A DNA stretch of 49,995 nt, from sequence record NC_105507.1; one strand, 5' to 3'. Below, one piece after another: positions 987 through 46,916 of the stretch. The position numbers and the translations under genes were made by a program. This DNA is from a phage. The notes beneath the pieces are model-generated. The model saw only the letters and a list, made by a program, of their open reading frames with translations. It made no database searches and was not told the DNA's origin. Numbering within the stretch: the first letter of the stretch is position 1; each line of letters starts with the position of its first letter.

Positions 987-1463
987 TTAGCTATTCGTGC
1001 TGTTATCACCTTTGTAGAATCGTCCGCCTGGTTCGTAGTCTGAATTTTTGACTACGCGCAACATATCGTATTTGTCGCAACGGGTAGTAAGAGGCTTACC
1101 GTTAGAATCAAACCGCAGATCTGGACGACAAAATGATGCGCGGTATCCTTTGCATCCATTATATTTGTAGTCGTTATGCACCTTTTGTGCTCCAGCGGCT
1201 GAAATCATACCACGCTTTCGCCACTGGTTAACGACTTGCTGAGATACGCGCAGACGTCGAGCCATAGCAGGAACGCCGCCGTAATACTCGATCAGAATGT
1301 CAAGGCGAGATTTCAGGCTTGCTTTTACCTCATCTCGCAGGATAAGAAATCCGGTTCGGTGTTTTCGTGGTTTTTTGTCTTTACCTCGTCGCGTTCCGTT
1401 GTTACCGTTAATAGTGCGCTTGTCGATCTCACCCGTAGATACTGCAATTCGTGCATCTTTCAT
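987..1463 (-). CDS. HTH DNA-binding protein (Cro/YdaS-like)
   Basis: helix-turn-helix-like segment GVPAMARRLRVSQQVVNQWRKRG; GAGGTG RBS 5 nt upstream of ATG 1463. Confidence 0.55.
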   Translation of the reverse strand: MKDARIAVSTGEIDKRTINGNNGTRRGKDKKPRKHRTGFLILRDEVKASLKSRLDILIEYYGGVPAMARRLRVSQQVVNQWRKRGMISAAGAQKVHNDYKYNGCKGYRASFCRPDLRFDSNGKPLTTRCDKYDMLRVVKNSDYEPGGRFYKGDNSTNS

Positions 1464-3548: not shown

Positions 3549-3967
3549 TGGCTATAACTGATAAAGGAGATTATCTTGAGTTTTACGAAAGAGATCCAAC
3601 CGACACGAGAAAGGAAGTTAATCACCAGATAGATAGCTTTCAGTGGTTGACTTATGCTCATCCTTATTTGCTAGCGTGGCATACGGTAAACGAGAATGAG
3701 AAGTCGAAAGTAACGGCGATGATTGATCAGCAGTCCGGCTTGGTTAAGGGGGTAAGCGATTTCATCATCCTGATTGGTTCAAACGGAAAATACCCCTTTG
3801 CAGCGATTGAGATCAAACGAGTGAATAAATCAGGCAAGGGGAAAGCATCACCAGTCAGCGATGAACAAAAGGCTTTTTTGCGTCGCGTTCGCAGCTTAGG
3901 AGGATTCGCTGCGGTCGCCTACGGATTTAATCAGTTTAAGTTAGCTATTGAATACATGCTTAAATAG
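3548..3967 (+). CDS. VRR-NUC domain nuclease (PD-(D/E)XK)
   Basis: DFIIL...AIEIK...Q pattern typical of VRR-NUC; ATG overlaps helicase stop (TAATG). Confidence 0.65.
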   Translation: MAITDKGDYLEFYERDPTDTRKEVNHQIDSFQWLTYAHPYLLAWHTVNENEKSKVTAMIDQQSGLVKGVSDFIILIGSNGKYPFAAIEIKRVNKSGKGKASPVSDEQKAFLRRVRSLGGFAAVAYGFNQFKLAIEYMLK

Positions 3968-4007
3968 CACTTTTTGTTAAAACTGGCGCGATGGATTGCG
4001 CCATAAT
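3965..4007 (+). promoter_or_regulatory. TAGCAC-box promoter-like cassette
   Basis: exact box TAGCACTTTTTGTTAAAAC, GGCGC/GCGCC hairpin, CATAAT 22 bp after TTGTTA. Confidence 0.55.
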
Positions 4008-4777: not shown

Positions 4778-5035
4778 ATGAAAAAAGAGAGAAGCGTTTA
4801 TTTAAATGAAACTGGCGAGTGGTTGTTATTTCGCGCTATGGTGTGCGATGCACTTGATAAAAACCCTAACGTGAAAAAGATGATTGATTGCGATCCGTGG
4901 GAATTTTCAAGCGCATTAGATATGAGCTTTGATGAGACAAGAAAACTCCCTCTTGAAAAATGGCACGAACAAATCAGAAATGATATGCAAGAGTTTGTAG
5001 ATTCGTGGAATTTTCAGAACGGAATGATCCACTAA
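4778..5035 (+). CDS. hypothetical protein
   Basis: ORF with GGAG RBS, tightly packed after dam. Confidence 0.55.
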   Translation: MKKERSVYLNETGEWLLFRAMVCDALDKNPNVKKMIDCDPWEFSSALDMSFDETRKLPLEKWHEQIRNDMQEFVDSWNFQNGMIH

Positions 5036-5078
5036 TAGCACTTTTTGTTAAAACGCCCGGCATTTTGTCGGGCATAAT
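5036..5078 (+). promoter_or_regulatory. TAGCAC-box promoter-like cassette
   Basis: exact box, hairpin GCCCGGC..GTCGGGC, CATAAT at 22-bp spacing. Confidence 0.55.
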
Positions 5079-8487: not shown

Positions 8488-8809
8488 CGCCCATCTCCCC
8501 TATTCTAGCAATATCCCTGATCCAGTCGTTGCGCATACCATCCAGGCTATACAATTCGAATCCGAAAGGCCGCTTTGACGATCCTTTGGACCAGTATTTA
8601 CCGCAGACCCCATCTATATAGCCAGCCGTCATCATTCTTGCGCAAAATTCCTTAGATGCAAGGCTGGCGAACATTCGCGGCGTAAGTCCGGCGGCCCGTG
8701 CGAGCCGCTCACATTCTCTATGCTGATAGATAAATTTGGCTATGTGCTGCCTGTTAAACCAGTCGTATGACTCACACCATTTATACAGATCAAGCAAAAA
8801 CATAATCAT
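8414..8809 (-). CDS. hypothetical protein
   Basis: ORF tightly coupled to upstream 526-aa gene. Confidence 0.55.
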   Translation of the reverse strand: MIMFLLDLYKWCESYDWFNRQHIAKFIYQHRECERLARAAGLTPRMFASLASKEFCARMMTAGYIDGVCGKYWSKGSSKRPFGFELYSLDGMRNDWIRDIARIGEMGDDELFQAKANRQDLEALRRKFNIT

Positions 8810-10386
8810 CCCAGCAGTATTGGATTGACAAAAATAACACCATTAATCACACAAACATAATTTCTTTCTTCCAGCATTGGCAGCAAGTGCCCTTCTATCC
8901 TCTTCATTACGCCAGCCTGACCAACGAAAGGTTTTACCTTTCTCGCTGATTCGTACAGGGCGCGAATATTCAGAATCCCTTTATTAGCCTTGCCGTGTCT
9001 AGTGATCAATTCAATCAATTTGCCCATTTCAGCATCATCACCAGCATAACCAGAAGCATTGGCGGCGCTAATGTATGTTTTGCTCAATTCCTGAAACATG
9101 ATCAACGCCTCTTGCATTGTTTCCACGTCGATCTCTTTCGACTTCTGCGGGTATCCAGCAGGATTAAACCAGTTGCGGATAACATGCAGGACGGAAGCAA
9201 GCCTGATCACCTGTTTATCCATTTTACCCAGCGCACCGCGTAACATTGTATGAGAATACTTTCCGCCGTCTGCAAGATGCGGTTCCATATCCTGGCGAGC
9301 AATGTTGAGCACTCGCATAGCTGAGCGGCTTATTTTCAGCGATATATTTGATTCGCTCATGATGTTATGCACCAATTGATAATATTGGGCCTTCAATTCA
9401 GGATCCACCGCCTCATAGGTAGAATCACCATTTTCATCAATGAATGAGCGACGGCCTAAGAATGATTCCTCACGGACCAACAAAAAGCGCTCACTCACAC
9501 CGATACCGCGCGATCCAGCGTCCATGATTCCGCTTATCGTTTCATCCTGGGCTATAACGCTCATACATCCAAGCGCGCGAAAACTCATGTTATTGTCAGC
9601 ATTAGCACGGGCAATTGATACGTGACCATTATCCCACGCCTTAAGCACTAGCTCGCTGTTAGTCTTCCTTTCGCTATTGGCATAGGTCAAGCCTAACAGG
9701 CTGTTAATACTTGTTGCTTCGTCAGATATTACGGCAAAGTTACCTTGCTTGTTGTTGATTTTCGCCAAGCCTTCTGGAGTTGTATCTGAAACAGGAAAAG
9801 TTATATCACACATTTTTTCCAGCTTTTCCTCCAGATCCTCTTTTTCCTGGTATAGAGATTCCATATCAGCGCCGGATCTTTCGCTTTTCATCTCCTTTGC
9901 AAGACCTGCCAGCTTTGCCTGTATTTTCTTTCTTTCCTTGCGGCGTTGCTCGTTGATCTTCTCAACTTCCGCAATCATCGGAGCAATAGCCATGCTGTTG
10001 ATCGCAGATTTACCAGTTGACGGCGGCTGGCTTGTAACGACGTAAAGCGCAGTCGGCTGATCGGTTCCGTGATAGTCAACCGTAAAGCGTCCAAGCATAG
10101 CGGCAGAAATGCAGCCGATAAAGTGCATGTAAGCCGATGATTCAGGGAATTGAACGGATCGCGCAATGCTGCGTGATAACTTGCCGACAACATCAATATC
10201 ATTACCAAGAGAAATAACGGGGTAGCGATCGTGACCGCTATTCACATCCTTTACGTCGCCCCAAAAGCTGGACGACTGGCGATAGCCGTTAGCCTGAATT
10301 GATACGCGAACTGGCGAAAGGTTCTGGCTTTCAGCCATAGCGATTATTTGTTGTGGAGTTAATTTGTTCGTTTCTAATGAAAACAT
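8806..10386 (-). CDS. P-loop NTPase-like protein (SF3-helicase-like Walker A/B), function unknown
   Basis: PPSTGKS Walker A-like and FAVISDEA Walker B-like segments, coiled-coil insert; AAGGAG RBS. Confidence 0.6.
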   Translation of the reverse strand: MFSLETNKLTPQQIIAMAESQNLSPVRVSIQANGYRQSSSFWGDVKDVNSGHDRYPVISLGNDIDVVGKLSRSIARSVQFPESSAYMHFIGCISAAMLGRFTVDYHGTDQPTALYVVTSQPPSTGKSAINSMAIAPMIAEVEKINEQRRKERKKIQAKLAGLAKEMKSERSGADMESLYQEKEDLEEKLEKMCDITFPVSDTTPEGLAKINNKQGNFAVISDEATSINSLLGLTYANSERKTNSELVLKAWDNGHVSIARANADNNMSFRALGCMSVIAQDETISGIMDAGSRGIGVSERFLLVREESFLGRRSFIDENGDSTYEAVDPELKAQYYQLVHNIMSESNISLKISRSAMRVLNIARQDMEPHLADGGKYSHTMLRGALGKMDKQVIRLASVLHVIRNWFNPAGYPQKSKEIDVETMQEALIMFQELSKTYISAANASGYAGDDAEMGKLIELITRHGKANKGILNIRALYESARKVKPFVGQAGVMKRIEGHLLPMLEERNYVCVINGVIFVNPILLG

Positions 10387-11088: not shown

Positions 11089-11131
11089 ATTATGCCAGGT
11101 TTTTACACCTGGCTTTTAACAAAAAGTGCTA
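11089..11131 (-). promoter_or_regulatory. TAGCAC-box promoter-like cassette
   Basis: box, GCCAGG/CCTGGC hairpin, CATAAT. Confidence 0.55.
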
Positions 11132-11837
11132 TTTTGAGTTTGACTCAAATACGGCGCGAGCAAATCCGCGCGGAGTGAGGGAGCGGATCATCTTTGTGCG
11201 TGATGAATTGCCGCCAGTTTTGGCCCAGCCTGGATTATCTTTGTCTTTCTCTTTCGGCAGGATTAAAGCACGTGGAGGAATAACAAAGCCGTTGCCAGTC
11301 CAGAGGCATGTTTTCTTAAAGTAGCGATCCCGCGCCGGAATAATATCAGGGAAGTCGGGATGTTTATCATCTTCCGGCAGATAGCCAGCGTAATCGCACG
11401 GATGGAACGTATAATCAGGTTTTCGCCATAACGTTGACAACTTGCCAACCGGATTTTCGATCATGTAAGGAACACCGAAATAATCAGCTATATCAGCCGC
11501 GATTCTGCAAGTGTCGGCGGCCTCATCCTGGAACGATGGATTCTCAAGGCGTTTTTTGGCCCAATGGCGAGATCCGCTATTTGCAAGGTCGGTGCAAGGA
11601 GGGAACGCCATAATAAAATCAGGATTGCCCCACTCATTATTGATTGCCTTAACATAAAAAGCATCATCAATCCAGACGTTAACGTATTCGATATTCTCAT
11701 GCTGTATGCGCACTGACTGGTAATCACCGTGATCGCCGCCGTCAGCATTAAAGCAAATGCACTTATATCCATTATCAGCCCAATCTTTAACGGCTTTACC
11801 AGATCCATCAAATAGGGAGAATATTAAACCTTTATAC
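11129..11837 (-). CDS. SAM-dependent DNA methyltransferase-like protein (cytosine-5 type motifs)
   Basis: FSLFDGSG (motif I-like), FPPC (PC dipeptide), ENP (ENV-like); start set to second ATG after GAGG. Confidence 0.45.
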
Positions 11838-14275: not shown

Positions 14276-14310
14276 TTACTATCTCCTGAGCGGTTCGTTT
14301 CGATGTGTGT

Positions 14311-14353
14311 AATGTACCCGATCAGGCGGCCTGAGTTTTAACAAAAAGCGCTA
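14311..14353 (-). promoter_or_regulatory. TAGCAC-box promoter-like cassette (leftward early)
   Basis: box variant TAGCGC, TCAGG/CCTGA hairpin, TACATT at 22-bp spacing. Confidence 0.5.
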
Positions 14354-14383
14354 TTTGACGGTTAGCACCAGGATTGTGATCGA

Positions 14384-14474
14384 AATAATCAAAAGTAATC
14401 ATTCGTAATCAAATCACGTCAAAATGATGATTGCCTTTGCAAATTTGATGAGAAAAGTAATCACGTTTAATCAT
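14384..14474. repeat. phased iteron-like array (TAATCA x5)
   Basis: TAATC at about 14386, 14396, 14406 (10-bp phasing) and 14458, 14468. Confidence 0.5.
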
Positions 14475-14649
14475 TGGTTGCAGTGGAGATAGTGAAACCT
14501 TCCCCTCTTGCCTCACTTTTCCGCCTGGCTGTCAGTGGTTGTTGTCTTTTGTTCACCCCTGTTACCGATTTCAGGCGGCGTGTTTCCGCGCGGTTTTCCG
14601 GTGTAGCGAAAACGGAAAAAACAAAGAAAATCCTCTATAATACATTGAA

Positions 14650-14810
14650 AATAAAGATTATTTATTTATATATATCTATAATGTTTTCTTTTTGTTCTCA
14701 CTGTTACAGTGCTTTTTGTTGGTTATGGTGTGGTTGTGTGTGGGTATATATGGATAGTTGCGCGCGCGGCGGATTGCATATGTATATATACTTTTTCCGG
14801 CGGATTGCGT
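14650..14810. repeat. AT/GT-rich intergenic element, copy A (homologous to 44060-44205)
   Basis: shared blocks TTTATTTATTTA, T-rich CTTGTT, GT-rich GGTT repeats, CATRTGTATRTATATA..CCGGCG; contains direct repeat CGGCGGATTGC x2. Confidence 0.5.
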
Positions 14811-14909
14811 TAACAGCGTGAACAGAAAAATAACAGCCGCGAAATCAATAACTTGCGCATGATTTTGTAGTTTTTCGATATTGGTAACGTTTTGAATACA
14901 ACAAAAACA

Positions 14910-14937
14910 TTGACACGCACCAAATAGCTTTTATAAT
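14910..14937 (+). promoter_or_regulatory. consensus sigma70-type promoter (rightward early)
   Basis: TTGACA-16 bp-TATAAT, about 30 bp upstream of RBS/ATG 14969. Confidence 0.7.
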
Positions 14938-14968
14938 GCGCCAACAGTCAACAACTGGAGGAAAGGAA

Positions 14969-16715: not shown

Positions 16716-16716
16716 A

Positions 16717-16758
16717 TAGCACTTTTTGTTAAAACTCAAATGTGGGGCCAGGTATAAT
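16717..16758 (+). promoter_or_regulatory. TAGCAC-box promoter-like cassette
   Basis: exact box; TATAAT in loop of GGGCC/GGCCC hairpin (21-bp spacing). Confidence 0.55.
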
Positions 16759-18678: not shown

Positions 18679-19269
18679 ATGAAGCGAGACATTATCATCC
18701 TTAATGGGCCGCCAGGTTGCGGGAAGGACACTATTGCAGCTTACCTAACGGGCCATCGTTACCCAGCGGTTAAGGCGTCATTCAAACAGCCGATGTTCGA
18801 TATTGCGTTTTCCATGCTTGGCCCGACTCGATATGATGAGTTTATTGACCTGTACAACGACCGAGAGCAAAAAGAAAAGCCTCAAGTTATCTTAGGCGGC
18901 AAGTCACCTCGACAATTCATGATCTGGATTAGCGAGGATGTAATGAAGCCAGTCTTTGGGGAGCAGTATTTCGGGCGTCGAATGGTTGAAGAGATTAACG
19001 AGATGTACCGAGATTTGACGGTTGTGATCAGTGATGGCGGATTCCCCGAAGAAATCAAGCCGCTTGTTAAGGCAGGGCATGAAGTGCATATTTGCCGATT
19101 GCATCGCGACGGCTTCACGTTTGCTGGCGATTCGAGAGACTACATTGACCTGAGCGGTTATCACTATCGAATCCATCACTATGACTTCCACTTGCAGGAC
19201 GGCAAGCCGGAACTGGCTGTAAACGAGATCGTCAATGCTGTCAAATGGAAGCACACACAGATTAAATAG
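18679..19269 (+). CDS. P-loop nucleotide kinase (dNMP kinase-like)
   Basis: P-loop GPPGCGKDT resembling the GKDT loop of phage dNMP kinases; GGAG RBS. Confidence 0.7.
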   Translation: MKRDIIILNGPPGCGKDTIAAYLTGHRYPAVKASFKQPMFDIAFSMLGPTRYDEFIDLYNDREQKEKPQVILGGKSPRQFMIWISEDVMKPVFGEQYFGRRMVEEINEMYRDLTVVISDGGFPEEIKPLVKAGHEVHICRLHRDGFTFAGDSRDYIDLSGYHYRIHHYDFHLQDGKPELAVNEIVNAVKWKHTQIK

Positions 19270-19309
19270 CACTAATTGCTAAACGCGGGGCGCAATGCCT
19301 CGCTATAAT
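19267..19309 (+). promoter_or_regulatory. TAGCAC-box promoter-like cassette (variant)
   Basis: TAGCACTAATTGCTAAAC, imperfect hairpin, TATAAT at 22-bp spacing. Confidence 0.5.
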
Positions 19310-23203: not shown

Positions 23204-24771
23204 TGATCATATGGGAAGATTTGACGGCGGCGCAAAAGCGAGCCATTAAAGAAATCAGTGAGCATTCATTCGAAAAGATGATCAGAATCTGGTTTCAGTT
23301 ATTGCAGGGGCAAAAATTCCAGAGCAACTGGCATTTTAGCTTATTGTGCAGTGAGGTAGAGAAGATCATCAATGGAGAGTCGCAGAATGTGATTTTCAAC
23401 ATTACGCCAGGTAGCGGTAAGACTGAGATTTTCTCGATCCACATGTCACCATACGCGTCATTGAAAACTCGGAAGGTGAGAAACCTTAACCTTTCGTTTA
23501 GTGATGGACTTGTCCAGCAAAACAGCAACAGGATAAAGGAGATTATCGGTTCTCCTGAGTGGCAAGAGCTATGGCCAGGAAAACTGGCAAAGGCGAGCGC
23601 AAAAGATCTCATAGTTACGGATGGCGGCAAGGTTAAATTGCAAGTTAACTCACGTTCTATTGGCGGACAGGTAACAGGTTTGCGTGGCGGCTATATGGAC
23701 GATGGTTTTACTGGTATGCTGGTTCTGGACGATCCAGACAAGCCGGATGATATGCTTTCTAAGGTCAAGCGTGAGGCGATCCACATGCGGTTAAAAAACA
23801 CAGTGCGATCGCGTCGAATGAAAGACACTACGCCGATTGTTATGGTGCAACAGCGACTACACGTTAATGATTCCACCTGGTTCATGCTTAATGGCGGGAT
23901 GGGCGGTATTGAGTTTAAAGTTGTGAGCATTCCTGCGCTGGTTACGAAAGAATACCGCGAAACGCTTCCTGATTGGTTGAAGCCTGAATTTGATCGTGAT
24001 GTGTTGTCAAGTAAGCCAGTGATGATAGATGGCGTTGCTCATTATTCATTTTGGCCTGCGAAGGAAAGCGCGGAGGAATTGCTTGCATTGCGCAATGCAG
24101 ATCCTTATACGTTCGCCAGTCAGTACCAACAGCAACCCATCGCGCTTGGCGGCAACGTGTTTAAAACAGAGTGGTTCCAGTATTACGGCAGCGGCGAAAA
24201 ATGCGCACTTCCTAAACCGGATCGCTTTGAATACACATTTATTACTGGTGATACCGCGCAGAAGGCCGGAGAGCTTAACGACTATTCAGTTTTTTGTTAT
24301 TGGGGGATGTATAAGAATCGCGTTTACTTCATTGATGGCATTCGCGGAAAGTGGGAAGCGCCGGATCTTGAATTAAATTTTATTGCCTTCGTTAATCAGT
24401 GCTGGAAGCGCAATAAGGAGTGTGGCAGCTTGCGACGTATCCACATTGAGGATAAGGCCAGCGGCACGGGTTTGATTCAGGGGGCCAAAAAGAAGATCCC
24501 GATTGATATAAATCCCGTTCAGCGAAGCAATGACAAGGTAACGCGAGCAATGGACGCCGCGCCAGTAATGAGGGCCGGACGTGTGGCACTGCCAGAAAGT
24601 CATCCCATGTTACCTGAGATACTGGCAGAGGTTGCAGCGTTCACTTTTGACGATTCTCATCCCCATGATGATATTGTCGATAATATAGTTGATGCTGTTA
24701 ACGTCGAAATGAACTTGGCTGATGATCCGGTAGCAAGGATGAAAAAGCTGGCTGGTCTACGCAATAAATAG
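23203..24771 (+). CDS. terminase large subunit
   Basis: 522 aa, P-loop-like TPGSGKT, acidic C-terminal nuclease region, synteny. Confidence 0.85.
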   Translation: MIIWEDLTAAQKRAIKEISEHSFEKMIRIWFQLLQGQKFQSNWHFSLLCSEVEKIINGESQNVIFNITPGSGKTEIFSIHMSPYASLKTRKVRNLNLSFSDGLVQQNSNRIKEIIGSPEWQELWPGKLAKASAKDLIVTDGGKVKLQVNSRSIGGQVTGLRGGYMDDGFTGMLVLDDPDKPDDMLSKVKREAIHMRLKNTVRSRRMKDTTPIVMVQQRLHVNDSTWFMLNGGMGGIEFKVVSIPALVTKEYRETLPDWLKPEFDRDVLSSKPVMIDGVAHYSFWPAKESAEELLALRNADPYTFASQYQQQPIALGGNVFKTEWFQYYGSGEKCALPKPDRFEYTFITGDTAQKAGELNDYSVFCYWGMYKNRVYFIDGIRGKWEAPDLELNFIAFVNQCWKRNKECGSLRRIHIEDKASGTGLIQGAKKKIPIDINPVQRSNDKVTRAMDAAPVMRAGRVALPESHPMLPEILAEVAAFTFDDSHPHDDIVDNIVDAVNVEMNLADDPVARMKKLAGLRNK

Positions 24772-24788
24772 CACTAATTGCTAAAAAG
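24769..24788 (+). repeat. degenerate TAGCAC box copy
   Basis: TAGCACTAATTGCTAAAAAG overlapping terminase stop; no -10 at canonical spacing. Confidence 0.4.
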
Positions 24789-26896: not shown

Positions 26897-28012
26897 ATGA
26901 AGGCAAAACAAAGATTTGATAGCGCCAAAGTAAAGGCGCACTTTGATGATAACGGGTTTTTAGTTGATCGCCCTATCGTGGCGCGAATTGGTTTACAAGT
27001 CTATCAGACTCCTTTCGGTGAGCGCCGAGAATTTCGCCCTGCGTCAGAAGTATTCAAGGCCGACTCGCTCGCCACCTTTGCAGGGAAGCCGGTCACGGTT
27101 GGTCACGTCACGGTAACGCCAGAAAACGCCGAAAAGGTTGTAGTTGGTTCTTGTGCTGGCGCTGGTGTGCCGAACGGGATCGGCGTAGAGGTTCCGTTAA
27201 GCATTTACTCAAAACGAGCAATCGAAAGCGCAAAGAAGCGAGACACGGCGGAAATTTCAGTTGGTTATACATCGGTTGATATTGATAAACCAGGCTGGGG
27301 CAATAATAAAACTGGTGAGTACGTTTTCGATGAGGACGTTAGCGAAGACTGGAAACCTGATTCTCCTGATTGGGTTAAGTTTGATGCAATCCAGACTGAA
27401 ATCAAGGTAAACCACATCGCGTTAGTTTTCCGAGGTCGAGCTGGCATTGCAAAATTAAACCTTGATAGCCAGCAAGATTTTCCGTATAGTGACGACGTTA
27501 TTAACAACAAAGAGGATCAAATCATGACTGTAAAAATTAAACTGGATGGCGCTGTAGAGTTTGACGTGCCGAAAGCGGTTGCGGATCACATTGAATCACT
27601 GAAAGCTGATACCAAAGCGCAGAAAGAAAAGGCTGACAGCCTAGAAGCTGAGCGAGACGCACTGCAAACCAAAGTAGATGGCATTCAGGATCAGATTGAT
27701 GCCGCAGTCAAGAAGGCCAAAGAAGATGCCGAGCAATATGCTCAATTAGTGGCAGACGCTAAAGAGTTAGGCATCAAGTGCGACGGCCTGGATGCGAAAG
27801 CAATCAAGGTTGCATACATCAAGGAAGTTATGGGCAATGACGTTTCTGATAAAACTGATGCCTATATCGAAACAGCTTTCGACATCGCCAAAAACTCTGA
27901 TAAAATGGCGGCGCAGCGTAAGAGCATTAAAGGTGACTCTTTCGCGAATGAAAAGCAGGATGACGCAGGTTCTAAGCTGAATCCTAACGCTCGTTTTGAG
28001 AAACTGAAATAA
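26897..28012 (+). CDS. putative prohead protease/scaffold protein
   Basis: position before capsid genes; C-terminal coiled-coil Ala/Lys/Asp-rich segment. Confidence 0.5.
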   Translation: MKAKQRFDSAKVKAHFDDNGFLVDRPIVARIGLQVYQTPFGERREFRPASEVFKADSLATFAGKPVTVGHVTVTPENAEKVVVGSCAGAGVPNGIGVEVPLSIYSKRAIESAKKRDTAEISVGYTSVDIDKPGWGNNKTGEYVFDEDVSEDWKPDSPDWVKFDAIQTEIKVNHIALVFRGRAGIAKLNLDSQQDFPYSDDVINNKEDQIMTVKIKLDGAVEFDVPKAVADHIESLKADTKAQKEKADSLEAERDALQTKVDGIQDQIDAAVKKAKEDAEQYAQLVADAKELGIKCDGLDAKAIKVAYIKEVMGNDVSDKTDAYIETAFDIAKNSDKMAAQRKSIKGDSFANEKQDDAGSKLNPNARFEKLK

Positions 28013-29392: not shown

Positions 29393-29410
29393 GTTTAACA
29401 AAAAGTGCTA
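29393..29410 (-). repeat. degenerate TAGCAC box copy (antisense in structural module)
   Basis: revcomp TAGCACTTTTTGTTAAAC; no good -10 at canonical spacing. Confidence 0.4.
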
Positions 29411-29417
29411 TCATCTA

Positions 29418-33125: not shown

Positions 33126-33168
33126 AATCTATCAAATAAATTAATTCCACTTTTAACAAAAAGTGCTA
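33126..33168 (-). promoter_or_regulatory. TAGCAC-box promoter-like cassette, antisense to tail genes
   Basis: revcomp box, TAGATT at 22-bp spacing, pointing leftward into terminator hairpin. Confidence 0.4.
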
Positions 33169-33183
33169 TAAGGAGATCTTAAG

Positions 33184-39103: not shown

Positions 39104-42100
39104 ATGGCTAAATATATGATAAGCGGCAGTAAGGGCGGAAGCAAAAAGCCATACGTGCCAAAAGAGATGGAAGATAACCTGATCTCGATAAACAAGATTA
39201 AAGTTTTGCTGGCTGTATCTGATGGCGAGTGCGATCCAGATTTCACGTTGCGCGATCTTTATCTTGATGATGTTCCGGTTATTGCCAGCGATGGCACTGT
39301 TAACTACGAGGGAGTTACGGCTGAATATCGACCAGGTACGCAGACGCAAGATTACATCCAGGGTTTTACTGACACATCAAGTGAGGTGACAGTTGCAAGA
39401 GATATTACAGGAGACAATCCTTATGTTATTTCTGTTACAAATAAAAATCTATCTGCGGTAAGAATAAAGATCCTGATGCCAGTAGGCATTAAAACAGAGG
39501 ATAACGGCGATCTTGTTGGCGTAAGGGTTGAGTATGCCGTAGATATGGCTGTTGATGGCGGTTCTTATAGCGAGGTTATGAGAGATGTAATTGACGGCAA
39601 GACAAGATCAGGATACGACCGCAGCAGAAGGATTGATCTTCCTAAGTTTGATGAGCGCGTTTTAATCCGAGTAAAGCGACTGACTCCAGACAGCACATCT
39701 TCAAAGGTGACTGATAAAATCAAGCTGCAAAGTTACGCTGAGGTTGTTGATGCAAAATTCCGCTATCCTCTGACTGGACTTGTATTCGTAGAATTTGACA
39801 GCGAATTGTTTCCTACGCAAATCCCTAACATTTCTATAAAAAAGAAATGGAAGATTATTAATGTGCCAAGCAACTATGATCCAATATCAAGAGAATATCA
39901 CGGGTCATGGGATGGGACTTTTAAAAAAGCGTGGTCAAATAATCCTGCTTGGGTTCTTTATGATCTGGTGACAAATCAGCGTTATGGACTTGATCAGCGA
40001 GAGTTAGGAATACAGATCGACAAGTGGAGCTTATACGAGGCGGGCGTTTACTGCGATCAGAAAGTTCCAGACGGTAAAGGCGGCACTGAGCCTCGCTACC
40101 TATGCGATGTGGTGATTCAGAATCAAGTTGAGGCTTATCAGCTAATCCGTGACATTTGCTCAATCTTTCGCGGAATGAGTTTTTGGAATGGTGAGAGCTT
40201 ATCAATCGTGATTGATAAGCCGCGCGATCCATCATACGTGTTTACTAATGAAAACGTCATCAACGGTGATTTTCAGTACACAAACGCAAGCGAAAAAAGC
40301 ATGTACACGCAGTGTAACGTGACGTTTGACGACGAACAAAACATGTATCAGCAGGACGTAGAGGGGGTTTTTGATACTGAGGCTGCATTACGATTTGGAT
40401 ACAATCCAACAAGCATTACAGCGATCGGTTGTACACGCAGGAGCGAAGCGAATCGTCGCGGTCGGTGGGTTTTGAAAACAAACCTTAGAAGCACTACTGT
40501 AAACTTTGCTACCGGACTAGAGGGGATGATTCCATCAATAGGTGATGTGATTGCTATCGCTGATAATTTTCAGAGCAGCAACCTAACGTTAAACCTATCG
40601 GGCCGAGTGATGGAAGTTTCAGGATTGCAGGTTTTCGTTCCGTTTAAGGTTGATGCTCGTCCTGGTGATTTTATTATCATCAACAAGCCGGACGGAAAGC
40701 CAGTTAAGCGCACGATCTCAAAGGTTAGCGCAGACGGAAAAACCATTGAGTTAAATATTGGATTTGGTTTTGATGTTAAGCCTGATACTGTTTTTGCGAT
40801 TGACCGTACTGACCTTGCGTTGCAGCAATACGTTGTGACAACTATCAGCAAGGGTGATGACGAAAACGAGTTTACCTATTCAATCACTGCTGTAGAGTAC
40901 GATCCGAACAAATACGACGAGATTGATTATGGAGTAAACATTGATGACAGACCGACTTCAATTGTTCAGCCTGACGTGATGGCAGCGCCTGAGAACGTTA
41001 AGATCTCATCTTATTCTCGCGTCGTGCAGGGTGTTAGCGTTGAGACTATGGTTGTTTCATGGGATAAGGTTCCTTACGCATCGCTTTATGAAATGCAGTG
41101 GCGAAAAGGTGATGGTAACTGGCTGAATACGCCGCAGACCGCTAACAAAGAGATAGAGGTAGAAGGGATTTACTCTGGCAACTACCAAGTAAGGGTGAGA
41201 TCAGTTTCTGCAAGCGGTAACGCTTCCCCGTGGTCAAAGATTGCAACCGCCACTCTGACAGGTAAAGTTGGAGAGCCAGGAGCGCCGATTAATCTTACGG
41301 CTTCTGATAATGAAGTTTTTGGCATTCGTGTCAAATGGGGTATGCCGGAAGGATCAGGCGATACGGCTTACATTGAGCTTCACCAATCGCCAGACGGAAC
41401 GGTTGAAAACTCAAGTCTGCTTACGCTGATTCCATATCCTCAATATGAGTATTGGCATAGCACGTTACCAGCGGGGCAAGTTGTATGGTATAGAATCCGC
41501 AGCGTTGACAGAATAGGCAACGTTTCAAGCTGGACTGACTTTGTTCGCGGCATGGCGTCAGATGACGTTGAATCTGTTTTGGGCGACATTCTGGACAAGA
41601 TTTTTGATACAGAAGCTGGTCAAGAAATCAAAGAGAACGCCATAGACAGTGCCAATAAAATCAAAGACCAGGCGCAATCAATCATACAGAACGCGTTGGC
41701 AAATGATGCAGATGTGAAGTGGACGCGAGTGCAAAACGGAAAGCGCAAGGCTGAATATGGTCATGCTCTTGAGCTTATCGCCAATGAAACAGAAGCGCGC
41801 GTAACTCAAATCGAAGAATTAAGGGCATCAATTGATGGCGAGATAACATCAAGCATCAAGACAGTGCAGGAGGCAATTGCCACTGAATCAGAGACGCGAG
41901 CGACTCAAATTCAGCAGCTTGATTCTAAATTCACAAAAGAAATCGACGGCGTGCGCAAGGATACTTCTGCAAGCATTAGCGATGTAAGGCAGACAATCAC
42001 TAACGAGTCAGAAGCGCGCGCTCAGGCCGTTCAGCAGCTTGACGCTAAGTTCACGAAAGAGATAAACGACCTTGACGGAGTTATCAAAACAGAAGTCGAG

Positions 42101-42682
42101 GCTAACATCTCAGAAGTGAAACAGGCGATCGCCAATGAGACAGAGGCAAGGGTTCAGGCTGACCAGGCATTAACAGCACGATTTGGCGACGTTGAATCTG
42201 CATTGGTTGAAAAGTTGGATTCTTGGGCGAGCGTTGATTCAGTTGGGGCTAAATACGCTATGAAACTTGGCCTTACTTACAAAGGCCAGCAATACAGCGC
42301 AGGAATGGTGATGCAGCTTTCGCAGGGTTCATCCGGCCTTATCTCGCAAATTTTGTTTGATGCTAACAGGTTCGCCATTATGACTAGCTCTACTGGAGGG
42401 ACTTTTACTTTGCCTTTCGTGGTTGAGAATAATCAGGTTTTCATTAATAGTCTTTTGGTGAAGAACGGTTCAATCACTAATGCGATGATTGGTAATGTGA
42501 TTCAGTCAAACAACTTTGTTCAAAACCAGCAAGGATGGAGGCTTGATAAAAACGGAATCTTTGAGAATTACGGATCAACGCCAGGAGAAGGAGCTACTAA
42601 ATTCACCAATGAGGGATTGAAGGTAAAAGATGCAAACGGAGTATTGAGGGTTGAAGTCGGAAGGATTACCGGAAGCTGGTAA
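39104..42682 (+). CDS. tail tip / host specificity protein (lambda J-like)
   Basis: about 1190 aa, synteny after I. Confidence 0.9.
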   Translation: MAKYMISGSKGGSKKPYVPKEMEDNLISINKIKVLLAVSDGECDPDFTLRDLYLDDVPVIASDGTVNYEGVTAEYRPGTQTQDYIQGFTDTSSEVTVARDITGDNPYVISVTNKNLSAVRIKILMPVGIKTEDNGDLVGVRVEYAVDMAVDGGSYSEVMRDVIDGKTRSGYDRSRRIDLPKFDERVLIRVKRLTPDSTSSKVTDKIKLQSYAEVVDAKFRYPLTGLVFVEFDSELFPTQIPNISIKKKWKIINVPSNYDPISREYHGSWDGTFKKAWSNNPAWVLYDLVTNQRYGLDQRELGIQIDKWSLYEAGVYCDQKVPDGKGGTEPRYLCDVVIQNQVEAYQLIRDICSIFRGMSFWNGESLSIVIDKPRDPSYVFTNENVINGDFQYTNASEKSMYTQCNVTFDDEQNMYQQDVEGVFDTEAALRFGYNPTSITAIGCTRRSEANRRGRWVLKTNLRSTTVNFATGLEGMIPSIGDVIAIADNFQSSNLTLNLSGRVMEVSGLQVFVPFKVDARPGDFIIINKPDGKPVKRTISKVSADGKTIELNIGFGFDVKPDTVFAIDRTDLALQQYVVTTISKGDDENEFTYSITAVEYDPNKYDEIDYGVNIDDRPTSIVQPDVMAAPENVKISSYSRVVQGVSVETMVVSWDKVPYASLYEMQWRKGDGNWLNTPQTANKEIEVEGIYSGNYQVRVRSVSASGNASPWSKIATATLTGKVGEPGAPINLTASDNEVFGIRVKWGMPEGSGDTAYIELHQSPDGTVENSSLLTLIPYPQYEYWHSTLPAGQVVWYRIRSVDRIGNVSSWTDFVRGMASDDVESVLGDILDKIFDTEAGQEIKENAIDSANKIKDQAQSIIQNALANDADVKWTRVQNGKRKAEYGHALELIANETEARVTQIEELRASIDGEITSSIKTVQEAIATESETRATQIQQLDSKFTKEIDGVRKDTSASISDVRQTITNESEARAQAVQQLDAKFTKEINDLDGVIKTEVEANISEVKQAIANETEARVQADQALTARFGDVESALVEKLDSWASVDSVGAKYAMKLGLTYKGQQYSAGMVMQLSQGSSGLISQILFDANRFAIMTSSTGGTFTLPFVVENNQVFINSLLVKNGSITNAMIGNVIQSNNFVQNQQGWRLDKNGIFENYGSTPGEGATKFTNEGLKVKDANGVLRVEVGRITGSW

Positions 42683-43879: not shown

Positions 43880-43904
43880 TACTCCTTAGTTGTTGTTGGA
43901 TGCA

Positions 43905-43946
43905 ACTATACACGATCTTGGGCATCGCGTTTAGCAAAAAGTGCTA
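43905..43946 (-). promoter_or_regulatory. TAGCAC-box promoter-like cassette (variant) for reverse cassette
   Basis: revcomp TAGCACTTTTTGCTAAAC, TATAGT at 21-bp spacing, then AAGGAG RBS. Confidence 0.5.
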
Positions 43947-44059
43947 TTTGTTATTTTTTGTTTTCCGGTGTTATCGAATTTAAGACGGCGTAAATTTAGC
44001 GCAAAATTTAGACAACATAAGATCAATAAACAATCAACAAAATAGATATATACATATAA

Positions 44060-44205
44060 AATCAATAGTTTATTTATTTATGTATGTATATTTGTTTTTT
44101 CTTGTTATCTGCGTTTCTTGTGGTTTTGGTTGTTTGTGGTGATTTTTCTTTCTGAGTATCTGTATGTGCCATCATTCATGTGTATGTATATAATCCGGCG
44201 TATCT
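44060..44205. repeat. AT/GT-rich intergenic element, copy B (homologous to 14650-14810)
   Basis: same block order as copy A. Confidence 0.5.
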
Positions 44206-44316
44206 GAGAGAACATGGGAACAAGAAAAATAACACAAATTAATCATTAACTTATGAGTCAAATCTGTTTTCTTGCCATCTGAGAACGTTTAGAAAACAGA
44301 AAAAACAAAACAGCTA

Positions 44317-44344
44317 TTGACTAAATCAACCAAATGGCTACAAT
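44317..44344 (+). promoter_or_regulatory. sigma70-type promoter for recombination module
   Basis: TTGACT-16 bp-TACAAT about 30 bp upstream of AAGGAG RBS/ATG 44375. Confidence 0.6.
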
Positions 44345-44374
44345 GCACACATAAAGCAACAAGGAGCATTAAAG

Positions 44375-45763: not shown

Positions 45764-46420
<657 letters not shown>

Positions 46421-46463
46421 TAAACGGGGCGCTTGCGCCCCTTTTGTCATAGGAGAAAACAAA

Positions 46464-46916
46464 ATGCACGTTATTACAGGTGAGATTCGAAAAGAGCCAA
46501 AAGTAAAGCAAATGCCTAACGGCAGCACGCTATATGTTATTGAGCTTTCCGAGCGATACAAAGACCGAGAAGGAAATTGGCAGTATACAAACTATGTGTT
46601 TTTCTTTAACGCGAAAACAGACGGCCTGAATGGTTGGTATGCCGAGGCGTTCCAGGTAGGCAAGGTTGTTTCTGTTTCCTGCGATACCTTGCGAGTTGAA
46701 ACGCGAGAATACAACGGAAAGATTTACAGCACCGTGCAGCCTGGCGGATTTGCAAACTTGCTATTTAGCCAGAGAGGTGAAAGCCAGCAACAATATCAGC
46801 AGCGAACGCAAGGAGGATGGGGGCAACCACAACAGCAACAGCAACAAAATACTCAACAGCAGCCGCAGCAAAGCAATCAGCCTCCGATTGACTTTGACGA
46901 CGATATACCATTCTGA
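46464..46916 (+). CDS. ssb: single-stranded DNA-binding protein
   Basis: OB-fold-like N-terminus, Gln-rich linker, acidic tail DFDDDIPF; start ATG 46464 after GGAGAAAACAAA RBS. Confidence 0.9.
   Translation: MHVITGEIRKEPKVKQMPNGSTLYVIELSERYKDREGNWQYTNYVFFFNAKTDGLNGWYAEAFQVGKVVSVSCDTLRVETREYNGKIYSTVQPGGFANLLFSQRGESQQQYQQRTQGGWGQPQQQQQQNTQQQPQQSNQPPIDFDDDIPF

What the first reader, a model, noticed from the sequence alone, without database searches (positions are those of the whole stretch)
14650..14810. Two homologous AT/GT-rich intergenic elements about 30 kb apart
The segment 14650-14810 and the segment 44060-44205 share the same ordered blocks by manual alignment: TTTATTTATTTA, a T-rich CTTGTT stretch, GT-rich GGTT/GTGG repeats and CATRTGTATRTATATA followed by CCGGCG. 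Each lies in one of the two largest non-coding gaps and just upstream of a near-consensus rightward promoter. A duplicated control element of this kind could be an origin-associated or host-factor-binding region.
Basis: seen in the sequence. Interest (0 to 1): 0.6.

Follow-up and report, generated by a model that had tools for sequence, protein, structure and literature searches.

The report
Duplicated DNA-unwinding module, T1-like phage
The two look-alike non-coding stretches are real: they are two copies of a module conserved across T1-like phages, which contains the most easily melted DNA in the genome, is flanked by evenly spaced short repeats and lies upstream of the two strongest early promoters. 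They are the best current candidates for this phage family's still-unknown replication origins, although a purely promoter-controlling role is almost as likely.

Summary
The window is a Warwickvirus (Drexlerviridae, T1-like) genome. About 400 bp (14540-14945 and 43945-44350) share one ordered architecture:
- three TGTT repeats phased at 10 bp;
- a TA-rich block;
- a T/GT-rich tract;
- a second TA block followed by CCGGCG;
- three inverted AACA repeats;
- an IHF-like site;
- an A-tract;
- a consensus sigma-70 promoter pointing right.

The left TA blocks are the two least stable duplex segments in the 50 kb. The adjacent tracts are its two most G+T-skewed segments. Five of the six phased TGTT/AACA triples in the genome lie here.

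The same layout holds in 11 of 11 genomes tested for both loci, including T1 and TLS, and in 42 of 43 orthologues of the second locus. In T1 the two copies resemble each other more than they resemble their orthologues.

Tests for a structured RNA, a conserved ORF, DnaA boxes, Chi, the P22 pac motif and a cruciform were all negative. The genome ends recorded for T1 and TLS map to the segment found only in the first locus, not to the shared module.

Best reading (0.4): a pair of replication origins activated by transcription, as in SPP1 oriL/oriR. Close rival (0.33): an upstream activating region for the early promoters. No experiment exists for either.

The parts
14337..14354 (-). R1: leftward copy of the T1-type 21-nt direct repeat (ATAGCGCTTTTTGTTAAA), followed about 20 nt later by a -10-like TACATT. 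Probably the promoter element for the leftward operon.
   Evidence: This repeat class is described, with function unknown, in the TLS paper PMC11447400.
14386..14475 (+). Segment found only in R1: TAATCA repeats phased at 10 bp (14386/14396/14406 and two more near 14458-14468). Not shared with R2. It corresponds to where the T1, TLS and haarsle records begin, so it is the candidate pac / small-terminase (TerS) recognition region.
   Evidence: (D2). Record starts. PMC7718038 places pac in this untranslated region.
14540..14566 (+). R1 array A: three direct TGTT units exactly 10 bp apart (TGTTGTC, TGTTCAC, TGTTACC).
   Evidence: (D1).
14633..14692 (.). R1 left TA-rich block: one of the two least stable 60-mers in the window (-0.976 kcal/mol per bp against a mean of -1.366). 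Candidate DNA-unwinding element. It is flanked by the inverted A-rich and T-rich arms 14615-14630 and 14684-14699.
   Evidence: (I3).
14682..14782 (+). R1 array B (TGTT at 14682/14693/14702, a direct repeat of array A) leading into the G+T-rich tract (0.76 G+T over 100 nt, second highest in the window).
14744..14808 (.). R1 right TA blocks (GTATATATGGATA; CATATGTATATATAC) bracketed by an exact 11-bp direct repeat, CGGCGGATTGC (14767 and 14798).
   Evidence: D8, I7.
14807..14836 (-). R1 array C: three AACA units (14812/14821/14832), that is, TGTT units in inverted orientation (CTGTTAAC, CTGTTCAC, CTGTTAT).
14843..14855 (+). R1 perfect IHF core consensus AATCAATAACTTG, about 90-100 bp upstream of the inferred start of the early transcript.
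14884..14937 (+). R1 array D, an A-tract resembling a promoter UP element (GTAACGTTTTGAATACAACAAAAACA), followed by the 12/12 consensus promoter TTGACA-16-TATAAT.
   Evidence: (I1).
43930..43975 (-). R2: leftward 21-nt direct repeat (43930-43947, followed by -10 TATAGT), directly abutted by array A (TGTT at 43949/43959/43969, 10-bp phasing).
44039..44098 (.). R2 left TA-rich block: one of the two least stable 60-mers in the window (-0.974 kcal/mol per bp). Contains a perfect IHF core, AATCAATAGTTTA, at 44060-44072.
44068..44167 (+). R2 array B (TGTT at 44093/44103) and the G+T-rich tract (0.82 G+T over 100 nt, the highest in the window).
   Evidence: D2.
44177..44200 (.). R2 right TA block CATGTGTATGTATATAAT followed by CCGGCG.
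   Evidence: D9.
44209..44253 (-). R2 array C (AACA at 44211/44219/44231), then the IHF-like AATCATTAACTTA (44241, one mismatch). This site is strongly conserved in orthologues.
44292..44344 (+). R2 array D, an A-tract (GAAAACAGAAAAAACAAAACAGC), followed by the promoter TTGACT-16-TACAAT upstream of the exonuclease VIII / Erf / SSB operon.
   Evidence: (I3, I6).

Best explanation
R1 (about 14540-14945) and R2 (about 43945-44350) are two copies of a cis-acting, non-coding module found throughout the Drexlerviridae. At its centre is a TA-rich DNA-unwinding block. Beside it lies a tract that is T/G-rich on one strand. Around these are arrays of short TGTTHHC repeats spaced one helical turn apart, direct on the left and inverted on the right, plus IHF-like sites. 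The whole unit sits about 270-300 bp upstream of a consensus early promoter that fires away from it, and was duplicated together with that promoter. My preferred mechanism is that these are the phage's replication origins, or an origin plus a second origin-like site as in SPP1 oriL/oriR. In this model a repeat-binding protein, phage-encoded or host, and IHF organise the flanks. Negative supercoiling generated behind RNA polymerase leaving the early promoter is absorbed at the least stable site. The opened TA block and skewed tract then receive the phage helicase and the zinc-ribbon primase, without DnaA. What is shown: the homology, the family-wide conservation, the extreme duplex instability and skew, the phased arrays, and the promoter linkage. 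What is inferred: protein binding, melting in vivo, and any start of replication.
For: - The left TA blocks are ranks 1 and 2 for lowest duplex stability at 30, 60 and 100 bp, about 4.5 sd from the mean.
- The adjacent tracts are ranks 1 and 2 for G+T content.
- Only 6 phased TGTT/AACA triples exist in 50 kb and 5 are here. Shuffles give a mean of 0.02 per region. R1 and R2 are also the two densest TGTT/AACA windows in the genome.
- The layout is positionally conserved in 11 R2 and 9 R1 non-redundant orthologues when aligned on the unstable block: TGTT at -90..-60, AACA at -30..-1, TGTT at +50..+85, AACA at +170..+200 and +250..+275.
- The unstable block lies 318-372 nt upstream of the exonuclease ATG in 42 of 43 orthologues.
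- R1-R2 similarity is significant in all 11 genomes tested. In T1 the best match of each copy is its own paralogue.
- These compact genomes keep the two regions as their largest non-coding gaps.
- Array A persists in TLS-type genomes, where there is no leftward promoter beside it. It is therefore not merely that promoter's UP element.
- No origin has been found in T1-like phages (PMC11447400, PMC7718038).
- The phage encodes a primase with a zinc ribbon and a DUF3987 helicase but no recognisable initiator.
- Precedents: SPP1 has two similarly organised origins made of direct repeats plus an AT-rich unwinding element (PMC6316719). Origins of phage-inducible chromosomal islands (PICIs) 'always' have two iteron sets flanking an AT-rich region (PMC6092414).
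- The absence of DnaA boxes fits T1's reported independence from host dnaA (from my own knowledge, not checked here).
Against: - There is no experimental or marker-frequency evidence.
- The repeat unit carries little information (TGTT plus a weak C) and overlaps A/T-tracts that could simply be promoter UP-like or bent DNA.
- The module always travels with the early promoter, so a promoter-upstream role explains the duplication more economically.
- GC skew tracks the coding strand only, with no switch inside the 15-42.7 kb block of co-oriented genes.
- No initiator protein has been identified.
- T1 replication is known to lean heavily on recombination (from my own knowledge).
- The G+T skew is weaker in T1 itself (about 0.6).
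- The predicted-curvature result was inconsistent between the two copies.
Confidence: 0.4

Rival explanations
1. A purely transcriptional element. The module is the extended upstream activating or regulatory region of the two immediate-early sigma-70 promoters, and in part of the leftward repeat-type promoters. A-tract arrays act as UP-like or bent DNA. IHF bends the upstream DNA. The supercoil-sensitive TA block boosts or times promoter firing, for example by passing destabilisation from the upstream block to the promoter as at E. coli ilvPG, or as with IHF stimulation of lambda pL. Alternatively the arrays are operators for a phage regulator that shuts the early promoters off.
For: - The homology includes the promoters themselves, and the module is always found upstream of the early promoter in every orthologue.
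- Arrays A and D abut the leftward and rightward promoters in R2, where UP elements sit.
- An IHF-like site about 95-105 bp upstream of the inferred start is conserved.
- These are the strongest consensus promoters in intergenic DNA.
- A Cro/YdaS-like helix-turn-helix protein is encoded.
- The ilvPG and lambda pL precedents are from my own knowledge.
Against: - About 230 bp of conserved DNA lies 150-400 bp upstream of the transcription start, unusually far for UP or activating functions in a genome this compact.
- The extreme one-strand G+T skew has no obvious promoter role.
- Arrays B and C adjoin no promoter.
- Array A persists in TLS, where no leftward promoter exists.
Confidence: 0.33
2. 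A recombination hot spot or entry site. The easily opened TA block and the G/T-rich strand favour strand invasion or annealing by the phage exonuclease VIII/Erf system or by RecA, seeding recombination-dependent replication and concatemer formation.
For: - The two most G+T-skewed tracts in the genome are here.
- R2 lies directly upstream of the exonuclease VIII-Erf-SSB operon.
- Mosaic breakpoints fall inside the module: many relatives match only 14607-14722, and PeterMerian shares R2 but not the R1 core.
- RecA's preference for GT-rich DNA and T1's dependence on recombination are from my own knowledge.
Against: - No Chi site, or one-mismatch Chi, in or near the module.
- The skew is weak in the T1 lineage.
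- This does not explain the phased arrays or the fixed geometry relative to the promoter.
Confidence: 0.08
3. A packaging (pac) element. The shared module is the small-terminase recognition and cleavage site, organised like SPP1 pacL-pacC-pacR.
For: - R1 lies in the untranslated region where pac maps in T1-like phages (PMC7718038).
- The T1 terminal repeat and the TLS record start lie within R1.
- Phased repeats flanking a central region resemble SPP1 pac (from my own knowledge).
- The small terminase is of the P22 gp3 family.
Against: - The T1, TLS and haarsle starts map about 200-250 bp to the left of the TA block, in the segment found only in R1, which has its own TAATCA/GATT repeats.
- R2 lacks that segment.
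- Only one pac is known for T1 (from my own knowledge).
- The P22 pac motif does not match above chance: 56 hits against 62.7 expected, none in the core.
Confidence: 0.05
4. A transcribed product: a small RNA or a short hydrophobic peptide encoded by the GT-rich tract, such as the 115-aa ORF 14474-14821 annotated as hypothetical in JLBYU01.
For: - An ORF is annotated in one relative.
- GT-rich DNA translates into hydrophobic, Cys-rich peptides.
Against: - No Rfam match, even at E<=1 for R2; for R1 only the gathering-threshold scan of the whole window ran.
- RNA folding of both strands is no better than shuffles, z from -0.8 to +0.2.
- No ORF is conserved in position or frame, even within the genus.
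- No Shine-Dalgarno sequence precedes the internal ATGs.
- Curated annotations leave the region empty.
Confidence: 0.02

Closest known systems
Bacillus phage SPP1 oriL / oriR
   Same: A pac-type siphovirus of about 44-51 kb with two distant, similarly organised non-coding or partly coding sites made of direct repeats plus an AT-rich unwinding element. One of them lies in one of the longest intergenic regions (PMC6316719).
   Different: In SPP1 the repeats are well-defined boxes bound by a known initiator, gp38, and origin activity has been reconstituted. Here the repeats are short (TGTTHHC), no initiator is known, nothing has been tested, and each copy is coupled to a consensus early promoter.
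Origins of phage-inducible chromosomal islands (PICI / SaPI)
   Same: Two sets of short repeats flanking an AT-rich presumed melting site, served by a primase-helicase type replication protein (PMC6092414).
   Different: Those origins lie just downstream of their pri-rep gene and the iterons are longer and more exact. Homology between the T1-type DUF3987 helicase and PICI Rep proteins was not tested.
E. coli oriC with the outward gidA promoter; transcription-activated phage origins (lambda ori, T7 primary origin, T4 oriF). From my own knowledge.
   Same: An unwinding element within a few hundred bp of a strong promoter. At oriC the promoter fires away from the origin, and the negative supercoiling behind it helps opening.
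   Different: There are no DnaA boxes here. No promoter is predicted to read into the TA block. This is an analogy only.
IHF-dependent upstream activating regions (ilvPG UAS1, lambda pL). From my own knowledge.
   Same: An IHF core about 90-105 bp upstream of a strong promoter, embedded in DNA that supercoiling readily destabilises.
   Different: The most unstable block lies about 270-320 bp upstream, much further than in those systems, and carries phased repeat arrays and a strand-skewed tract.
The 21-nt direct repeat of T1-like phages (aaATAGCACnnnTTGnTAAAA; TLS paper PMC11447400)
   Same: One leftward copy flanks each module (14337-14354 and 43930-43947), and 19 matches are found in the window.
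   Different: That repeat is a separate promoter-type element found upstream of many genes. It is not the AT/GT-rich core and does not account for the R1-R2 homology.
Satellite phage P4 ori / crr. From my own knowledge: iteron TGTTCACC, two cis sites.
   Same: A P4-alpha-like zinc-ribbon primase is encoded. Repeat units resemble the P4 iteron, with one exact TGTTCACC at 14550. There are two distant cis sites.
   Different: The primase here lacks alpha's helicase and origin-binding domains. A single exact 8-mer is within chance expectation. The P4 iteron sequence could not be verified in the paper library.

Membership tests
Iteron-type phage or plasmid replication origin (SPP1 oriL/oriR, PICI/SaPI ori) | An AT-rich DNA-unwinding element that is a local or global minimum of duplex stability. 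| tested here: met
   14633-14692 and 44039-44098 are ranks 1 and 2 in the whole window at 30, 60 and 100 bp. This is conserved in 42 of 43 R2 orthologues and 13 of 13 R1 orthologues.
Iteron-type phage or plasmid replication origin (SPP1 oriL/oriR, PICI/SaPI ori) | Repeated binding sites (iterons) flanking or adjoining the unwinding element. | tested here: inconclusive
   Phased TGTT/AACA triples are highly non-random: 5 of the 6 in the genome are here, against a shuffle mean of 0.02. Their positions are conserved. However the unit carries little information and overlaps A/T-tracts, and binding is unknown.
Iteron-type phage or plasmid replication origin (SPP1 oriL/oriR, PICI/SaPI ori) | A cognate initiator protein that binds the repeats. 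| not testable with these tools
   Only candidates exist: the Cro/YdaS-like helix-turn-helix protein at 990-1463(-) and the DUF3987 helicase at 8809-10386(-).
Iteron-type phage or plasmid replication origin (SPP1 oriL/oriR, PICI/SaPI ori) | Replication actually starts there. | not testable with these tools
   GC skew follows the coding strand and says nothing either way. No published data were found.
DnaA-dependent origin (oriC-like) | A cluster of DnaA boxes (TTWTNCACA). | tested here: not met
   No perfect box in R1 or R2. Two one-mismatch boxes against 1.9 expected.
pac site of headful-packaging phages (P22/SPP1 type) | The first packaging cut, or genome end, maps to the element. | tested here: not met
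   The T1 terminal repeat start and the TLS and haarsle record starts align to the R1-only segment at about 14430-14500, some 150-250 bp to the left of the TA block. This is indirect evidence, since it relies on deposited records.
pac site of headful-packaging phages (P22/SPP1 type) | The P22 pac consensus AAGATTTATCTG. | tested here: not met
   56 matches at up to 3 mismatches against 62.7 expected, none in the core.
IHF-dependent promoter upstream region | An IHF core WATCAANNNNTTR upstream of the promoter, conserved in relatives. | tested here: met
   Perfect cores at 14843 and 44060, and a one-mismatch core at 44241. In shuffles the chance that both regions carry a perfect core is 0.0065. 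The site near 44241 is conserved. This is a consensus match only; binding was not tested.
T1-like 21-nt direct repeat (TLS paper) | The sequence ATAGCACnnnTTGnTAAA, oriented with transcription, upstream of a gene. | tested here: met
   Present at 14337-14354(-) and 43930-43947(-), with no mismatch to the search pattern ATAGCNCNNNTTGNTAAA; the R1 copy reads ATAGCGC where the consensus has ATAGCAC. This applies to the flank only, not to the AT/GT core.
Structured non-coding RNA (Rfam) | A covariance-model match or folding better than shuffles. | tested here: not met
   No Rfam hits: the whole window at gathering thresholds, and R2 also at E<=1. The matching E<=1 scan of R1 failed on a call error. 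Folding z-scores range from -0.8 to +0.2 on both strands.
Chi recombination hot spot | The sequence GCTGGTGG. | tested here: not met
   No exact Chi in the window, and no one-mismatch Chi in R1 or R2.

The most novel reading that the evidence does not exclude
The two modules are a previously unrecognised type of DnaA-independent phage origin, found throughout the Drexlerviridae. Each is an unwinding element opened by the early promoter firing away from it, bracketed by helically phased TGTTHHC arrays for a phage protein, with a built-in one-strand G/T-rich landing zone for the zinc-ribbon primase or for a persistent RNA-DNA hybrid. The two copies are kept alike by gene conversion. They may divide the work as SPP1 oriL and oriR do, one starting theta replication and the other triggering the switch to concatemer synthesis.
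Probability: 0.15. Interest if true: 0.75.

Novelty: new member of a known kind. Interest (0 to 1): 0.5.

Why it matters
T1 is one of the seven classic T phages, and Drexlerviridae are common in phage collections and in therapy candidates. Yet neither their replication origin nor the logic of their early transcription is known. The 2024 TLS re-annotation and the SU57 paper both report finding no origin.

This analysis narrows the search to two defined 400-bp modules with precise, testable sub-elements: the TA block, four repeat arrays and the IHF sites. It also separates them from the probable pac region next to R1.

If they are origins, T1-like phages would join SPP1 as two-origin pac phages, and the module would be a handle for engineering, plasmid amplification or replication-targeted defence studies. 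If they are promoter control regions, they define the architecture of the immediate-early switch.

Tried and rejected
- **Structured RNA.** No Rfam match: the whole window at gathering thresholds, and R2 also at E<=1; the E<=1 scan of R1 failed on a call error. Folding of both strands of both cores was no better than shuffles.
- **Coding.** The 115-aa ORF at 14474-14821 and other small ORFs are not conserved in position or frame, even within Warwickvirus.
- **Cruciform or palindrome.** Imperfect inverted symmetry exists around the TA blocks, but DNA hairpin energies are within the shuffle range, z from -1.3 to +0.1, in the window and in T1.
- **DnaA boxes, Chi, GATC clustering.** None enriched.
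- **P22-type pac motif.** At chance level.
- **GC/AT skew as an origin signal.** It follows the coding strand only.
- **Predicted intrinsic curvature (Bolshoy wedge model).** R1 array A ranks third in the genome, but R2 is not in the top ten, so this is inconclusive.
- **Extra internal promoters at the TATAAT-like strings in the TA blocks.** No acceptable -35, and the -10 is not conserved; haarsle has TATAAC.
- **Tandem repeats.** Only marginal hits.
- **Similar DNA in plasmids or E. coli genomes, such as satellites carrying a copy.** None found.
- **Literature.** No transcriptome, origin mapping or description of this duplicated module for Drexlerviridae. The Rtp genome paper is not held. A search for the P4 iteron string was uninformative.
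- **Shigella phage 2019SD1.** It seemed to lack the right half of R2, but the record is flagged as an unverified assembly, so I did not use it.

Full report
**Identity of the window.** The region around the finding is 98-99% identical to Escherichia phages Phunderstruck, SECphi27, tunus, JLBYU01 and swan01. JLBYU01 is classified as Drexlerviridae, Tempevirinae, Warwickvirus. The window is therefore a circularly permuted genome of a T1-like virulent siphovirus.

Region R1 (14276-14935) lies between a leftward operon of small genes that also contains a DUF3987 helicase, and a rightward operon of small early genes that leads to the terminase. Region R2 (43880-44374) lies between a short leftward cluster and the rightward exonuclease VIII / Erf / SSB operon.

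**Check of the observation.**
- Local alignment of the exact claimed segments scores 53. Dinucleotide shuffles give mean 21.7 and maximum 36 (0 of 500 reach it).
- The whole intergenic regions score 82. Shuffles give mean 22.6 and maximum 34. Shuffles that keep local composition in 20-nt blocks give mean 32.8 and maximum 64 (0 of 500).
- The reverse-complement control and one unrelated region reach 53-54. The narrow segments alone are therefore only modestly above the AT-rich background.
- The extended alignment is the convincing one: 14636-14910 against 44047-44308, 251 aligned columns at 77% identity, with conserved order of features.

In curated relatives the two regions are the two largest non-coding gaps: PeterMerian 645 and 500 bp, T1 700 and 527 bp. 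Each ends in a near-consensus rightward promoter.

**Anatomy.** From left to right, both regions carry the same series of elements:
1. A leftward copy of the T1-type 21-nt repeat ATAGCACnnnTTGnTAAA followed by a -10-like hexamer.
2. Array A: three TGTT units exactly 10 bp apart (14540/14550/14560; 43949/43959/43969).
3. An A-rich stretch carrying AACA.
4. A TA-rich block.
5. Array B: a direct repeat of array A, 142-144 bp to its right.
6. A T/GT-rich tract.
7. A second TA block (CATRTGTATRTATATA) and CCGGCG.
8. Array C: three AACA units, which are TGTT units inverted (14812/14821/14832; 44211/44219/44231).
9. An IHF-like AATCAWTAACTTR.
10. Array D: an A-tract abutting the -35.
11. The promoter.

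The repeat unit reads roughly TGTTHHC. R1 has in addition an insert of about 180 bp (about 14360-14535) that R2 lacks. The insert contains TAATCA repeats phased at 10 bp.

**How far these features depart from chance.**
- The left TA blocks (14633-14692 and 44039-44098) are the two least stable duplex segments of the whole 50 kb at window sizes of 30, 60 and 100 bp. They give about -0.975 kcal/mol per bp against a mean of -1.366 and an sd of 0.085.
- The tracts next to them are the two most G+T-rich stretches on the top strand at 60, 100 and 150 nt: 0.82 and 0.76 against a mean of 0.50 and an sd of 0.06.
- Seven of the 16 TATATA hexamers in the genome lie in these 1.15 kb.
- Triples of TGTT or AACA on one strand with 8-12 bp spacing occur six times in the genome, five of them here. 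Dinucleotide shuffles of the two regions give a mean of 0.02.
- Two of the six perfect IHF cores in the window lie here. In shuffles the chance that both regions carry one is 0.0065.

**Conservation.** I collected 43 loci upstream of exonuclease VIII homologues and a dozen loci upstream of the R1 leftward gene from viral contigs. I also fetched T1, haarsle, PeterMerian and TLS.
- R1-R2 similarity is significant in all 11 genomes where both loci were available, spanning at least six genera and including T1 and TLS. Scores are 47-90 against null maxima of 27-36.
- The least stable 60-mer starts 318-372 nt upstream of the exonuclease ATG in 42 of 43 orthologues. It is followed by a G+T-rich 100 nt: 0.63-0.82 in Tempevirinae and about 0.6 in the T1 lineage. 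R1 orthologues behave the same way.
- When orthologues are aligned on the unstable block, TGTT and AACA fall into the same positional clusters at both loci.
- Column conservation among 11 non-redundant Tempevirinae picks out TTTTGTT, GTGTT, TTGTT, GAACA (twice), AATCA...ACTTA and the promoter.
- Within Tempevirinae the cores mostly group by locus. Across the deepest split, each T1 copy has its own paralogue as best match (score 66), while its matches to Tempevirinae cores reach at most 48, little above the shuffle maxima of 27-36 seen for such comparisons. This points to concerted evolution or a shared constraint.
- In TLS-type genomes R2 has no leftward gene and no 21-nt repeat, yet array A is retained just after a terminator.

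**What it is not.**
- Not an RNA: no Rfam match (whole window at gathering thresholds, R2 also at E<=1) and no folding signal on either strand.
- Not a gene: no ORF is conserved even within the genus, so the hypothetical CDSs annotated inside R1 in JLBYU01 are probably spurious.
- Not a DnaA-type origin, and not Chi.
- Cruciform potential does not exceed shuffles.
- No related DNA in plasmids or E. coli genomes.

**Relation to pac.** Published work places pac of T1-like phages in the untranslated region that corresponds to R1 (PMC7718038; PMC11447400).
- The T1 record, whose position 1 starts the 2.8-kb terminal repeat, and the TLS and haarsle records all begin in the segment found only in R1.
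- These starts lie near a conserved GGAG(G)GATAG motif that aligns to window positions of about 14430-14500. That is 150-250 bp to the left of the TA block, among genus-specific short repeats.
- The P22 pac motif is at chance level.

I therefore assign pac to the R1-only insert and treat the shared module as something else. This rests on deposited record starts, not on read data.

**Function.** Two explanations fit nearly equally well.

I prefer a pair of replication origins (confidence 0.4), for these reasons:
- A compact phage keeps about 230 bp of extra conserved non-coding DNA in two places.
- That DNA holds the genome's easiest-to-melt segment, bracketed by helically phased, oppositely oriented repeat arrays and IHF-like sites.
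- It lies within 300 bp of a strong promoter that fires away from it.
- The family encodes a primase and helicases but has no known origin or initiator.
- The architecture has direct precedents in SPP1 oriL/oriR and in PICI origins.

The close rival (0.33) is an extended upstream activating or regulatory region of the immediate-early promoters. It is favoured by the unbroken linkage of module and promoter and by the UP-like position of arrays A and D.

Minor rivals are a recombination entry site (0.08), a pac element (0.05) and a transcribed product (0.02). Nothing available here can show protein binding, melting in vivo or the start of replication. GC skew merely follows the coding strand.

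**Novelty.** The 21-nt repeat is published as an unexplained element. I found no description of the duplicated unwinding and array module or of any T1-family origin. In kind it resembles known origins or upstream control regions, so I class it as a new member of a known kind. Its main value is that it turns 'where does T1 replication start?' into a set of direct experiments.

Noticed in passing
window: 19 matches, e.g. 3964-3981(+), 5035-5052(+), 11115-11132(-), 16716-16733(+), 19266-19283(+), 24768-24785(+): The T1-type 21-nt repeat ATAGCACtttTTGtTAAA is nearly always followed, 19-20 nt after its last base and often across a GC-rich hairpin, by a good -10 (TATAAT, CATAAT, TATAGT) and then an RBS and start codon. 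With TTAAAA read as the -35 the spacer is 18 bp. It therefore looks like a dedicated promoter class: a weak -35 plus a conserved upstream ATAGCAC box, possibly an activator site. The TLS paper lists its function as an open question.
   Followed up: partly
window 29394-29411(-) and 33152-33169(-): Two perfect copies of the 21-nt repeat lie on the minus strand inside the plus-strand late operon, upstream of the major capsid gene and downstream of the major tail gene. They are antisense to the surrounding genes, contrary to the published statement that the repeats follow the direction of transcription. They could be antisense promoters.
   Followed up: no
window 14386-14475: The R1-only segment has TAATCA repeats at exact 10-bp phasing (14386/14396/14406, then two more near 14458/14468) around a spacer of about 45 bp. 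T1, TLS and haarsle have different short repeats at the same place, and their records start here. This is a candidate small-terminase recognition (pac) site.
   Followed up: partly
L001 (JLBYU01) 14408-14515(-) and 14473-14820(+); window ORF 14474-14821: The hypothetical-protein CDSs annotated inside R1 in JLBYU01 and several other records are not conserved even within the genus. They are probably annotation artefacts of a GT-rich non-coding tract.
   Followed up: yes
L006 (haarsle) 27022-27055: The depositors annotated a 34-bp 'repeat_region' inside the R2 GT-rich tract. It is two tandem 17-mers, GTGTTTTGTGTGATTTT and GTGTTTCTGGTGATTTT. The window's tract has a looser version of the same unit.
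   Followed up: partly
window, whole: There is no exact Chi site (GCTGGTGG) on either strand in 50 kb. There are about 306 GATC sites, against roughly 195 expected from length alone, which fits the phage-encoded Dam methylase.
   Followed up: no
window 46780-46880 and 46831: The sixth phased AACA triple, and the lowest G+T content in the genome (0.20-0.28), lie at the 3' end of the ORF 46413-46916(+), which by position is the SSB gene, next to a convergent gene junction. It may be just a repetitive codon run in the SSB tail.
   Followed up: no
L047/L020 (TLS, Stevie) upstream of exonuclease VIII: In Tlsvirus genomes R2 is not a divergent region. The module starts right after an intrinsic terminator of the preceding rightward gene, and the T-runs of array A double as the terminator tail. 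There is no leftward 21-nt repeat.
   Followed up: partly
L007 (PeterMerian) 41636-42280 compared with window R1: PeterMerian, in the same genus, shares a nearly identical R2 core with the window (score 377 of 480). Its R1 core, however, is closer to that of Hanrivervirus haarsle (110) than would be expected from the near-identity of its R2 core. Many relatives match only 14607-14722. The module seems to be a mosaic recombination boundary.
   Followed up: partly
L049/L098 (Shigella phage 2019SD1): This record appears to lack the right half of R2, including the early promoter. It is flagged UNVERIFIED_ASMBLY, so the apparent deletion may be an assembly error.
   Followed up: partly
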